Positions 45,001 through 47,493 of a DNA stretch of 47,493 nt are shown piece after piece. How positions within the stretch are numbered: position 1 is the stretch's first letter; each line of letters begins with the position of its first letter. Origin of the DNA: a virus. The stretch is from the UHGV virus genome UHGV-0021965. One strand, written 5' to 3'. A program made the position numbers.

Positions 45001-47493
45001 TAAATTTGTCTGCTGGCACTGCTCCGTCGGCTGCTATCTCTTCCGCTTCCTTCCCACCTATATCCTGGCGCATCCACTCTCGTGCTGCTTCTGGTGACAA
45101 AACCAGTGGCCGTCGATCGTGAATGTCAACCAGACCTTTATCAGCTGCAGACGTCACTATCAGAAAACCTTCAGCTTCATCGCCTCGCTCAAACGGAGTG
45201 CTGCCGATGGCGGCCATGAATATGGGCTGGCCATCGGCCCGATGGATGAAGTAGGGCTGTTTCTTGTCGCCTTCCTTCTTCCACTCGAACCATCCATCGG
45301 CGAAGCATATTGCCCGGCCATGCTGCCACAGAGGTTTAAACATTCTGCTGGTGGCCGCCGTCTCGACGCGAGCGTTAATCAGTGGTGGCTTATCCCACCA
45401 CCCAGGCGCATATGACCACAGCACAGGATCGAGGTGCAACTGCTCGTCTCGTTCACTCAGCAGCAGAACTTTGGTACCGGGCGCGACATTGTACCGGCCA
45501 ATCGGTTCCGGGTCGTATGCAATGTCGCGATCGGCTTCGTCGGCCAAGAAAGCCAAATATTCTTCACGGGTTTGGGCTTGTGCAAAACGTCCACACATAG
45601 AAACCTCCAGTCGGATGTCAGACTGAAAGTATAGGGTAGGGAGAAAAGTAGCGCGCGCTGGTTAAGTCTTACAAACGGATTCGTGGCGATTATCCTGATG
45701 AGAAAGGGAGGCGTAAAGCGATACGTTGTGAAATTGGAAGGAGCTACGCAAAGTTTCAACAATGCTAAAAGAAAAAACTAAACCCGGTAGGGGAGCCGGG
45801 TTCGCTGTGATGACAGTAAAGAAATTTATTCATTTGTAAGCCACATATCAGACTCTTCAAACATATCCTCCAGCATACGGTTCAACTTTTCACGATCACT
45901 TTTGCTAGCATCACTATTCAATCCGTTAGCCTGCATAGGTTTTACCTTCACTTCAGCATCAGGGAATATGTGATGAACTCGCCTCGTCAACTCAGCCAAA
46001 ATGATTTCTTTGGCACCATCCAAGCCTTGGACATTTCTCTTATCGTAAATCAACTCAACGAACATAAAAGTCTCCTAAATCTCTATGAGAAGAGGTTGTA
46101 TTTTTACTGTAAATATATACAGTGTCAAGGCGAGTGAGACCATTTATAGGATGGGATTTTATCGTCAGATTGAACAGAAATTACTGGGGGTAATTCCCCG
46201 GTTATTCCCCAATGTTTCCCCACAAGAAATTTACCAATAAAAAAACCAGCCATAAGAGGCTGGTTTTCAATGTGTTTTTGGTCGGCACGAGAGGATTTGA
46301 ACCTCCGACCCCCGACACCCCATGATAGCTAATCGAGGTTATAATATTTTTTCAATGCAGAGGAGAGAAGCTCAGTAATTGCCGCCACGCCAATTCCTGC
46401 TGTGCCAGTCGCTGCTTTCGAAATCATGCCTGAAAACCACTGTCCAACTGCGGGACCATAATTTTTGCTACGAGGTGCAATTGGGCCATCAGAATTTATC
46501 GCCACTTCTAGATCGGTTAGATCTTCGTTTGAAACCCCTTCAGTTTCAAGGTGTCGCCTTAAAGCTGCAATGTCATTTTTTATAACATTGTTAGTGATGT
46601 TAAAAGAACTGCTATCACCCAAGTTAATAACAGTATGATCACCAAATATTGCACTTTCAAAAATGGATGCGGCATCTACATTCTTAAGTTTATCTATCAT
46701 TGTATTTGCTCCTGGTATAGCGGATGCATATTCGGTTAATTCTAAAACAAAATCTAGAAGTCTCGATCTTACTTGCGTCAGAATGTTAGTGAAATTATGA
46801 AGTGCTATCTCTTTGTAACATCGAGTTATTTCATAATCCGTTACTACATTTTTGCAATATTTAAAATATGCGAAATCCAAAGGTATAGGCTGTTGAATAC
46901 TATGATTATCACCAGCATTAACTACTAGCTGTTCAATTTGACTGATTGAAAGCCTTAAAGATGCAGTAGTTGCATCCTCATAATCTTCATCATTAAGATA
47001 CGAAATCGGAAGCGGGTAAGCTGTATATAAGCGCACACCATTATTTGCGTCTGCCAGTATACGAGCAGGTACGGTGCGATAGTCAGGAAGAGGCATATTA
47101 TCAGGATAACCATTGAGTTCATGGTTCACCCATGCGGCAAGCTCTTTTTTCCCGATAGCATACATCAACACTTTTGTTTTAAGGAGTGCGTTGGTGGTTC
47201 CCTCATCTCCTGAACTGAGTATCGTGATAATCTCTTCTAGTTGGTTCACAAGAATACTCCTCATAAAAAAAGCCCGCATCAGCGGGCTTCTTATCACTCT
47301 GGAGCCGCGGCTCCTTTGCGTATCCTTTTTTGTCCCCTCACCGTCTGGTCGGTGTCCTGCTGAGACTACTAACTTCCTGTTATTGCAAGTGATGTCCTAT
47401 CACTGTCCAATCATGATTGGTGGAGCTGGCGGGAGTTGAACCCGCGTCCGAAATTTCTACATCCTCGGTACTACATGCTTAGTTTGTCTTTAC

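What the first reader, a model, noticed from the sequence alone, without database searches (positions are those of the whole stretch)
46329..47416. Unknown 311-aa gene placed directly behind a strong terminator next to ssrA
The gene is AT-rich, unlike the surrounding prophage. Its start codon is fused to the U-run of a strong terminator (stem AAGCCCGC/GCGGGCTT) that lies ~130 nt downstream of the tmRNA 3' end. Expression would have to come from terminator read-through of the heavily transcribed ssrA, or from a weak promoter (TTGGAC-17-TGCAAT) straddling the att core, with the hairpin acting as an attenuator. The protein ends in a glycine-zipper-like amphipathic segment (GTAGIGVAAITELL), as seen in membrane-permeabilising effectors of single-gene abortive-infection proteins. 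Location at the prophage edge is a known hotspot for defence cargo.
Basis: inference. Interest (0 to 1): 0.65.

Follow-up and report, generated by a model that had tools for sequence, protein, structure and literature searches.

The report
Prophage AbiTii-family defence gene beside ssrA
The "unknown" gene belongs to a named abortive-infection protein family (AbiTii) and is carried as a stand-alone cargo gene at the edge of a prophage inserted in the tmRNA gene, which makes it an ordinary but untested candidate phage-defence gene, not a new kind of system.

Summary
The gene is real. It lies on the minus strand, is AT-rich (39% vs 52% GC) and is under purifying selection. The start is almost certainly the GTG at 47249 (306 aa, AGGAG 7 nt upstream), not the ATG fused to the T-run.

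It is not unknown. It matches Pfam PF18864 / PADLOC AbiTii at E~1e-35, and RefSeq names E. coli copies "AbiTii domain-containing protein". The architecture is an AbiTii N-terminal domain, a conserved FGDNTTIxVG linker and a four-helix C-terminal module. About 300 full-length homologues share it. There is no AbiTi partner and no HEPN domain.

The gene lies inside a ~47-kb lambdoid prophage bounded by 32-nt ssrA core repeats. The hairpin and 128-nt spacer belong to the phage's ssrA integration arm: they are 90% identical in phage LLS, which lacks the gene. So the hairpin is the replacement ssrA terminator, not a dedicated attenuator.

ssrA read-through is plausible and has a precedent (speA in S. 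pyogenes). However, intact copies of the cassette also occur without a full ssrA upstream.

The "glycine zipper" is not conserved and no transmembrane segment is predicted. The best reading is a solo sensor-effector Abi-type prophage moron with an unknown effector mechanism.

An unexplained extra is a conserved tRNA-Pro 3' half 2 nt after the stop codon.

The parts
46329..47249 (-). CDS of a 306-aa AbiTii-domain protein (GTG start, TAG stop included)
   Evidence: ORF list. Pfam PF18864 at 1.3e-35 and PADLOC AbiTii at 2e-35. The start is fixed by alignment to homologues. dN/dS is 0.06-0.14.
46710..47249 (-). N-terminal AbiTii alpha+beta domain (about residues 1-180) with invariant W40, E44, G47 and Y48 (motif WVNxELNGYP)
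   Evidence: Extent of the Pfam match. Invariant columns in 40 sequences. AF2 model pLDDT 75-92 over this part. A conserved glutamate was noted for the domain in PMC3710099.
46617..46649 (-). Conserved linker motif IFGDHTVINLG (family consensus IFGDNTTIxVG, residues 201-211)
   Evidence: G203 and G211 are invariant; F202, N205 and I208 are nearly invariant. The model is low-confidence here, with pLDDT <50 at residues 203-220.
46344..46571 (-).
   Evidence: AF2 helices at 227-236, 241-254, 266-281 and 288-302. phrog_16090 matches residues 184-305 at 9e-36. A profile of this module finds 1832 cluster representatives, some with non-AbiTii N-termini.
47257..47261 (-). Shine-Dalgarno AGGAG, 7 nt upstream of the GTG start
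   Evidence: Read directly from the sequence.
47265..47289 (-). Intrinsic terminator hairpin (AAGCCCGC-TGAT-GCGGGCTT plus T-run). It is the phage-supplied replacement terminator of ssrA.
   Evidence: dG -18.1 kcal/mol, z -5.8. It is 96% conserved in E. coli and Pseudescherichia loci. It is present in the attP region of phage LLS, which lacks the gene. The displaced native terminator has the same GCCCGC/GCGGGC stem.
47290..47417 (-). 128-nt spacer, the phage arm of the attachment site, with four RGGAYA repeats plus one TGGACA in one orientation. It contains the weak promoter-like TTGGAC-17-TGCAAT.
   Evidence: 90% identical to the LLS attP region. 86-87% identical to E. coli loci, against 63-64% for the CDS. 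Repeat count is 4 against 0.1 expected, for a motif chosen post hoc.
47418..47493 (-). 3' end of the tmRNA gene ssrA (cut by the window end)
   Evidence: Rfam RF00023, 72 bits, E 1.2e-27.
47417..47448 (.). 32-nt attachment core, copy inside ssrA (the ssrA-proximal prophage junction)
   Evidence: Exact direct repeat with 206-237 (family D5).
206..237 (.). Second copy of the 32-nt ssrA core (the displaced ssrA 3' fragment). It marks the far end of the prophage.
   Evidence: The native ssrA downstream flank and its terminator follow it.
46280..46326 (-). 47-nt 3' half of a tRNA-Pro (proL-like) gene, from the anticodon loop to CCA, beginning 2 nt after the AbiTii stop codon
   Evidence: Unique in the window. 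96-98% conserved in homologous loci. Identical to the attP next to the integrase in phage Flotzy. The assignment to proL rests on my recollection of the E. coli proL sequence.
46241..46268 (-). Terminator hairpin downstream of the tRNA-Pro fragment. It serves as the 3' terminator of the cassette.
   Evidence: Terminator scan. dG -17.1 kcal/mol, z -5.9.
1130..2299 (-). Tyrosine integrase of the prophage, at the end far from ssrA
   Evidence: phrog_1 integrase at 1.3e-60. Same order as the integrase and gene 31 of phage LLS.
251..1084 (-). 277-aa ORF between the integrase and the att core, counterpart of LLS gene 31
   Evidence: phrog_7259 at 2.4e-47. LLS layout.

Best explanation
The feature is a stand-alone cargo gene (a 'moron') at the ssrA-proximal end of a ~47-kb lambdoid prophage integrated in the tmRNA gene.

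It encodes a 306-aa AbiTii-family protein. The N-terminal AbiTii alpha+beta domain has an invariant glutamate in WVNxELNGYP. A conserved FGDNTTIxVG linker follows, then a small four-helix C-terminal module.

By analogy with the family, the most likely role is an abortive-infection or superinfection-exclusion protein made at a low level in the lysogen. Lactococcal AbiT is an abortive-infection system, and other AbiTii domains sit in front of HEPN RNase effectors. On that analogy the AbiTii domain would be the sensing or adaptor part, and the C-terminal module would occupy the effector or assembly position.

The hairpin directly upstream is the terminator that the phage attachment arm supplies to rebuild ssrA after integration. 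The gene simply occupies the first cargo slot behind it. Its transcription is then either low-level read-through from ssrA or a weak start inside the 128-nt arm.

Shown here: family membership, gene reality, solo status, position inside the att-bounded prophage, and the terminator belonging to the integration module.

Inferred: defence function, the division of labour between the domains, and the route of expression.
For: - Family: Pfam PF18864 at 1.3e-35 and PADLOC AbiTii at 2e-35. RefSeq names E. coli copies 'AbiTii domain-containing protein'.
- Real, constrained gene: about 300 homologues of 300-306 aa with 99-100% coverage, 28 invariant columns, and dN/dS 0.06-0.14.
- Solo: no neighbour is shared by more than 4 of 78 loci. 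The flanking genes carry 127 different Pfam families.
- Prophage cargo: 32-nt ssrA core repeats lie at 206-237 and 47417-47448, with the integrase at the far end. Tail, invertase, umuDC, SRAP and DinI genes precede it. The CDS is 39% GC against 52%.
- Variable slot: phage LLS has the same core, spacer and hairpin (90% identity) but a different, convergent gene there.
- Accessory gene: present in 40 of 5426 complete E. coli genomes. Once it lies among DEAD-helicase, SMEK and AAA+S8-peptidase genes, and once it is cut by IS66.
- Modularity: AbiTii domains precede HEPN effectors in other proteins (PMC3710099). The C-terminal module recurs behind unrelated N-termini.
- Read-through precedent: ssrA into speA (PMC9951164).
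Against: - No member of this 306-aa subfamily has been tested. No paper in the library mentions it beyond the domain name.
- Lactococcal AbiTii needs the partner AbiTi, which is absent here.
- tblastn finds no homologue in 50,697 deposited phage genomes, so carriage by active phages is not shown.
- No convincing promoter was found.
- Many distant homologues sit next to housekeeping genes rather than in defence islands.
Confidence: 0.6

Rival explanations
1. Expression depends on ssrA: the gene is transcribed only as a 3' extension of the abundant tmRNA precursor that leaks through the hairpin. The prophage thereby borrows the ssrA promoter to set a low constitutive dose.
For: - The gene has the same orientation as ssrA and starts 169 nt after the tmRNA 3' end. 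That spacing recurs in E. coli, Citrobacter, Buttiauxella and Pseudescherichia.
- There is no room for a promoter between the hairpin and the start codon, and no consensus promoter lies upstream.
- Read-through of 0.25-0.7% from ssrA into the prophage gene speA has been shown experimentally (PMC9951164).
Against: - Intact 306-codon copies under purifying selection occur where only 14-28 nt of ssrA precede the spacer. These are E. coli 25-07233 (divergent SMEK gene upstream), Enterobacter genomosp. O, and a food-metagenome contig with a 98% identical protein.
- The hairpin is strong: -18 kcal/mol with a 5-7 T run.
Confidence: 0.35
2. The C-terminal helices are a membrane-permeabilising effector (glycine-zipper type) that kills the infected cell by depolarisation.
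For: - The last two helices are the most hydrophobic part of the window's allele and are rich in small residues.
- No enzymatic domain is found.
Against: - The G/A-rich string is specific to close alleles. Most of the family has D/E/K/W in the same helix.
- The maximum KD(19) score is 1.23 (below 1.6) and often falls in the N-terminal domain instead.
Confidence: 0.2
3. The hairpin plus leader is a gene-specific attenuator or riboregulator that controls the AbiTii gene.
For: - The hairpin lies 15-22 nt before the start codon.
- The 191-nt region folds better than shuffles (z -3.4), and in the window's MFE structure a distal segment pairs with the SD region.
Against: - The same spacer and hairpin are in phage LLS next to a different, convergent gene.
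- The pairing with the SD region is not possible in the E. coli sequence.
- The 15-nt leader is the least conserved segment, at 40-60%.
- The repeated RGGAYA motifs fit integrase arm sites better.
Confidence: 0.07
4. The gene has a role unrelated to defence, such as a selfish or addiction-type element or a phage accessory function, or it is an inert passenger.
For: - The function of the AbiTii domain is unknown.
- Distant homologues often neighbour housekeeping genes.
- The gene is absent from deposited phage genomes.
Against: - Strong purifying selection and a conserved full-length architecture across phyla.
- It is a patchy, rare accessory gene at prophage edges and in islands.
- The domain's only experimentally tied phenotype is abortive infection (PMC13064643).
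Confidence: 0.15

Closest known systems
Lactococcus lactis AbiT (AbiTi + AbiTii), a two-gene abortive-infection system
   Same: It shares the AbiTii domain (PF18864, E 1e-35; PADLOC AbiTii). It is a low-GC accessory gene on a mobile element.
   Different: No AbiTi partner is present: the gene is flanked directly by att-type fragments, and no neighbour is conserved in 78 loci. It carries an extra ~120-aa C-terminal module that, from my own knowledge, the 213-aa lactococcal AbiTii lacks. It is a Gram-negative prophage cargo gene rather than a plasmid gene.
AbiTii-HEPN fusion proteins (c2405 and Ymh families; Anantharaman et al. 2013, PMC3710099)
   Same: An N-terminal AbiTii domain is followed by a C-terminal module in a single polypeptide. 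This is the architecture of a sensor or adaptor joined to an effector.
   Different: The C-terminal module gives no HEPN hit in Pfam even at E<=10, and it has no conserved His or Rx4-6H motif. It is a different four-helix module preceded by an FGDNTTIxVG motif.
Phage morons, i.e. defence cargo next to attachment sites in temperate phages
   Same: The gene is AT-rich, is bracketed by terminators at the prophage end, and is absent from the related phage LLS, which carries another gene in the same slot.
   Different: No own promoter is recognisable. The flanks are two att-type RNA-gene fragments, an ssrA tail and a tRNA-Pro 3' half, that travel with the gene.
ssrA terminator read-through driving the prophage gene speA in S. 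pyogenes M1/M1UK (PMC9951164)
   Same: A prophage cargo gene lies co-oriented immediately downstream of ssrA and its terminator.
   Different: No transcript data exist here. The organism and phage are different, and the same cassette also exists away from an intact ssrA.

Membership tests
AbiTii domain family (Pfam PF18864 / PADLOC PDLC02334) | Significant match to the family profile over most of its length | tested here: met
   Pfam gives 123.7 bits (cut-off 27.6), E 1.3e-35, over profile positions 3-171 of 189. PADLOC gives 2e-35.
AbiTii domain family (Pfam PF18864 / PADLOC PDLC02334) | [quoted passage not shown] | tested here: met
   E44 is invariant in 40 sequences, within WVNxELNGYP. The AF2 model shows mixed helices and strands at residues 1-180.
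Lactococcal AbiT two-component system | Adjacent partner gene abiTi (a small protein predicted to be endoribonuclease-like) | tested here: not met
   The upstream neighbour is ssrA and the downstream neighbours are a tRNA fragment and then dinI. No neighbour is conserved across 78 loci. Other window ORFs were not all scanned for AbiTi.
Lactococcal AbiT two-component system | Abortive-infection phenotype (reduced plaquing, death of infected cells) | not testable with these tools
   This needs phage challenge experiments.
AbiTii-HEPN fusions (c2405 / Ymh) | C-terminal HEPN domain with a conserved His or Rx4-6H motif | tested here: not met
   The C-terminal 121 aa give no HEPN family in Pfam at E<=10. 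No invariant His or Arg occurs in the C-terminal alignment.
Phage moron | Present in one phage and absent at the same map position in a close relative | tested here: met
   LLS has the same att arm and integrase module but a different gene (gene 30) at this position.
Phage moron | Deviant base composition | tested here: met
   39.2% against 51.7% GC.
Phage moron | Own promoter and own terminator | tested here: inconclusive
   The downstream terminator is present. No consensus promoter lies upstream, and the proposed TTGGAC-17-TGCAAT is weak and not conserved.
ssrA read-through-driven prophage cargo (speA type) | Cargo gene co-oriented directly behind ssrA and its terminator | tested here: met
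   There are 169 nt from the tmRNA 3' end to the start codon, on the same strand. The same layout occurs in 5 genera.
ssrA read-through-driven prophage cargo (speA type) | Transcripts that span ssrA and the cargo gene, and dependence on the ssrA promoter | not testable with these tools
   No RNA data are available. Indirect counter-evidence is that intact copies exist without a full ssrA upstream.
Membrane-disrupting single-gene Abi effectors | Predicted transmembrane or conserved glycine-zipper segment | tested here: not met
   KD(19) maximum is 1.23. The segment is not conserved as G/A-rich across the family.

The most novel reading that the evidence does not exclude
The ~1.3-kb unit (ssrA tail, Int-arm spacer, hairpin, AbiTii gene, tRNA-Pro 3' half, terminator) could be a self-contained portable immune cassette. 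Its protein would represent a widespread, untested class of single-chain sensor-effectors. In that class the ~120-aa C-terminal module (FGDNTTIxVG plus a four-helix bundle), which also occurs behind unrelated N-terminal domains, would be a new non-enzymatic effector or assembly domain. In enterobacterial prophages the dose would be set by leak-through of tmRNA transcription. The mRNA 3' end would be shaped by the conserved tRNA-like half.
Probability: 0.15. Interest if true: 0.6.

Novelty: new variant of a known kind. Interest (0 to 1): 0.33.

Why it matters
If it is active, this would be a one-gene AbiTii-type defence that works without AbiTi and without a HEPN nuclease. It would give a handle on a domain family whose mechanism has been unknown since 2002. 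It would also add a prophage-borne immunity gene to the ssrA integration hotspot of enterobacteria.

The C-terminal module has at least 1800 cluster representatives in public data and has not been studied. As it stands, the locus is a routine example of defence-like cargo at a prophage end.

Tried and rejected
- **Sequence search of solved structures:** nothing below E 0.08.
- **C-terminal 121 aa:** no convincing Pfam match at E<=10 (only a chance-level PBCV_P4 hit, E 0.073, 13 bits against a cut-off of 30). NCBIfam gave nothing.
- **HEPN reading of the C-terminus:** rejected, because there is no profile hit and no conserved His or Arg.
- **Transmembrane reading:** rejected on hydropathy and lack of conservation.
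- **Conserved partner gene:** all-against-all comparison of ORFs within 2.5 kb in 78 loci found none. Pfam on 131 flanking ORFs found none either.
- **tblastn against 50,697 phage genomes:** no match.
- **Literature by protein accession, PF18864 and 'AbiT-like':** nothing found.
- **Attenuator idea:** the distal pairing with the SD region seen in the window's fold is not conserved in E. coli.
- **Promoter overlapping the T-run:** considered by eye and rejected for lack of any -35 element.
- **tRNA scan of the window:** none found, because both RNA genes are fragments.
- **Origin of the cassette:** capture by aberrant excision or fusion of two attP types were both considered, and I could not resolve between them.
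Full report
**What is there**

The window ends inside the tmRNA gene ssrA. Rfam matches tmRNA on the minus strand at 47418-47493 (72 bits).

On the same strand, 128 nt further on, lies a strong hairpin, AAGCCCGC-TGAT-GCGGGCTT, followed by a T-run (47265-47289). Its dG is -18.1 kcal/mol, with z -5.8 against shuffles. The consensus scan missed it only because its greedy stem extension consumed the T-run.

An ORF follows and ends at 46329. Its CDS is 39.2% GC, against 51.7% for the rest of the element. 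The physical observation is therefore sound.

**The start codon**

The evidence favours the GTG at 47249, which gives 306 aa:

- All ~300 homologues are 300-306 aa and begin at the position of this GTG (M-N/K-Q/L-L...).
- In DNA alignments the GTG is in register with the ATG of the E. coli, Pseudescherichia, Citrobacter and Enterobacter genes.
- In E. coli the upstream ATG is followed at once by a stop (ATG GGA TAA).
- AGGAG lies 7 nt before the GTG.

The start is thus 15 nt beyond the T-run. There is still no room for a promoter between the hairpin and the gene.

**What the gene is**

It is not an unknown gene.

- *Family.* It matches Pfam PF18864 (AbiTii) at E 1.3e-35 and the PADLOC AbiTii model at 2e-35. 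RefSeq labels E. coli copies 'AbiTii domain-containing protein'.
- *Selection.* dN/dS between close alleles is 0.06-0.14, so it is a functional gene.
- *Conserved residues.* Forty diverse homologues share 28 invariant positions. These include W40, E44, G47 and Y48 in the N-terminal domain, and G203 and G211 in an IFGDNTTIxVG motif. E44 fits the 'highly conserved glutamate' reported for the domain (PMC3710099).
- *Model.* An AlphaFold model (mean pLDDT 78) shows an alpha+beta domain at residues 1-180, a low-confidence stretch over the conserved motif, and four helices at 227-302.

**Architecture and partners**

Lactococcal AbiT is a two-gene system. Other AbiTii domains are fused to HEPN RNase domains of the c2405 or Ymh type. 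Neither applies here.

- The gene is flanked directly by RNA-gene fragments, so there is no adjacent partner.
- No ORF family is shared by more than 4 of 78 related loci.
- 131 flanking ORFs carry 127 different Pfam families.
- The C-terminal 121 aa hit no HEPN or other convincing Pfam family even at E<=10, and they have no conserved His or Arg.

The C-terminal part is nevertheless a module in its own right.

- PHROGs holds it as a separate family: phrog_16090 matches residues 184-305 at 9e-36.
- A profile of it finds 1832 cluster representatives.
- A few of those carry unrelated N-termini. One has a zinc-ribbon-like CxxC...CxxC region, and three have no recognisable domain.

This shuffling, together with the HEPN fusions of the AbiTii domain, is the basis for reading the protein as a sensor or adaptor plus an effector or assembly module. 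That reading is inference.

**The 'glycine zipper'**

GTAGIGVAAITELL is a feature of close alleles only. Across the family the helix reads SWxIELGxASSLLATAL, with acidic and basic residues. The Kyte-Doolittle (19-residue) maximum is 1.23 in the window's protein, below the usual 1.6. In many homologues the maximum falls in the N-terminal domain instead. A membrane effector is not excluded, but nothing here supports it.

**Where it sits**

- A 32-nt direct repeat of the ssrA 3' end (206-237 and 47417-47448) bounds a ~47.2-kb element.
- A tyrosine integrase (1130-2299) and a 277-aa ORF lie at the far end.
- In between are lambdoid tail genes, an invertible tail-fibre segment, umuDC, a DUF4431 gene, an SRAP gene and dinI.

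The AbiTii gene is therefore inside the prophage, in the last slot before the ssrA junction.

**The hairpin belongs to the integration module**

- Window 47266-47463, which covers the hairpin, the spacer and the ssrA tail, is 90% identical to the annotated attP region of phage LLS. There the adjacent gene is a different, convergent ORF, and the integrase plus a 271-aa ORF follow in the same order as in the window.
- The spacer carries four RGGAYA motifs plus one TGGACA in one orientation, against 0.1 expected for this post hoc motif. That is what integrase arm-type sites look like.
- The displaced native ssrA flank at the other end of the prophage has its own terminator with the same GCCCGC/GCGGGC stem.

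The simplest reading is that the hairpin is the terminator the phage supplies to rebuild ssrA. It is not an attenuator dedicated to this gene. The 15-nt leader is the least conserved part of the locus (40-60%). The SD-sequestering pairing predicted in the window cannot form in the E. coli sequence.

**Expression**

No consensus promoter lies upstream.

Read-through from ssrA is plausible. The layout, with 169 nt from the tmRNA 3' end to the start codon, recurs in Escherichia, Pseudescherichia, Citrobacter and Buttiauxella. ssrA read-through into the prophage gene speA has also been demonstrated in S. pyogenes (PMC9951164).

Read-through cannot be obligatory for the family, however. Intact copies lie behind only 14-28 nt of ssrA in three cases:

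- E. coli 25-07233, next to a divergent SMEK gene.
- Enterobacter genomosp. O.
- A metagenome contig whose protein is 98% identical to the window's.

Only RNA mapping can settle this.

**A conserved cassette**

The flanks are far better conserved than the gene. Identities below are for the window against the E. coli and Pseudescherichia loci.

| Segment | Identity |
|---|---|
| Spacer | 71-87% |
| Hairpin | 96% |
| tRNA-Pro fragment | 96-98% |
| CDS | 61-64% (synonymous sites saturated) |

Two nucleotides after the stop codon begins a 47-nt 3' half of a proL-like tRNA-Pro gene, followed by a terminator (46241-46326). The same fragment is the attP next to the integrase of phage Flotzy. It follows the AbiTii gene in every enterobacterial locus examined.

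Deeply diverged alleles thus sit in one conserved slot bracketed by two att-type fragments. I could not decide how this arose. Capture by aberrant excision, fusion of an ssrA-type and a proL-type attachment module, or recombination at conserved flanks are all possible. Nor could I decide why the 'fossil' tRNA half stays conserved.

**Distribution**

- The gene is a rare accessory gene, present in 40 of 5426 complete E. coli genomes.
- In one strain it is cut by IS66.
- tblastn finds no homologue in 50,697 deposited phage genomes.
- Full-length homologues occur across Proteobacteria and beyond, in unrelated contexts.

**Verdict**

The locus is a prophage-borne, stand-alone AbiTii-family gene with a C-terminal module that has not been described in the literature I could search.

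- The specific mechanistic claims (fused start, attenuator hairpin, glycine-zipper pore) are not supported.
- The read-through idea is reasonable, has precedent, and remains untested.

It is a new architectural variant of a known family. It is of moderate interest as a test case for how the AbiTii domain works.

Noticed in passing
window 46280-46326 (minus strand), with terminator at 46241-46268: A 47-nt 3' half of a proL-like tRNA-Pro gene begins 2 nt after the AbiTii stop codon. It is identical to the attP next to the integrase of phage Flotzy. It stays 96-98% conserved in all enterobacterial AbiTii loci, although the CDS is only 61-64% identical. Why a seemingly fossil attP is kept is unexplained.
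   Followed up: partly
window 47290-47417 (minus strand): The spacer after the tmRNA 3' end holds four RGGAYA motifs plus one TGGACA in one orientation (0.1 expected, motif chosen post hoc). These are probably integrase arm-type sites. A small hairpin (AGTGAT-AGGAC-ATCACT) right after the tmRNA end shows compensatory changes between loci.
   Followed up: partly
window 16066-16086, 42518-42538, 46105-46125: Three LexA-box-like 21-mers (TACTGTAAATATAAACAGTGT) are present. One lies just upstream of dinI, overlapping a TTGACA-17-AAAAAT promoter-like site. One lies before umuD. The prophage's cargo end therefore looks SOS-regulated, whereas the AbiTii gene has no such box.
   Followed up: no
window 44358-44879 (+): A second AT-rich (34-36% GC) cargo gene encodes a DUF4431 protein, between umuC and the SRAP (YedK-like) gene. 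It has no PADLOC match.
   Followed up: partly
window 40952-42380: An invertible tail-fibre segment is present. A Hin/Fin-type serine invertase (41823-42380) lies next to a tail-fibre C-terminal ORF on the opposite strand (40952-41695).
   Followed up: no
window ~100-205 (minus strand): The displaced native ssrA downstream flank carries its own terminator with the same GCCCGC/GCGGGC stem as the phage-borne hairpin, but it lies about 60 nt rather than 128 nt after the CCA end.
   Followed up: partly
L084 (E. coli 25-07233) 1927-10921: In this strain the AbiTii cassette sits between a DEAD/DEAH helicase pair and SMEK-domain, AAA-ATPase and S8-peptidase genes, behind only a 28-nt ssrA core. It looks like a tandem array of islands or a defence cluster at ssrA.
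   Followed up: partly
L087 (Buttiauxella) and L089 (Citrobacter freundii) 1-4832: In these genomes a complete tmRNA gene directly follows a type I secretion operon (OEP, ABC, HlyD-like) rather than smpB. In C. freundii the AbiTii cassette is followed by a Mu/P2-like baseplate and tail-fibre region, not a lambdoid one.
   Followed up: no
proteins P0147, P0251, P0232, P0234: The C-terminal module (FGxNxxIxxG plus four helices) also ends proteins with unrelated N-termini. One has CxxC...CxxC zinc-ribbon-like motifs, and the others have no Pfam or PADLOC match.
   Followed up: partly
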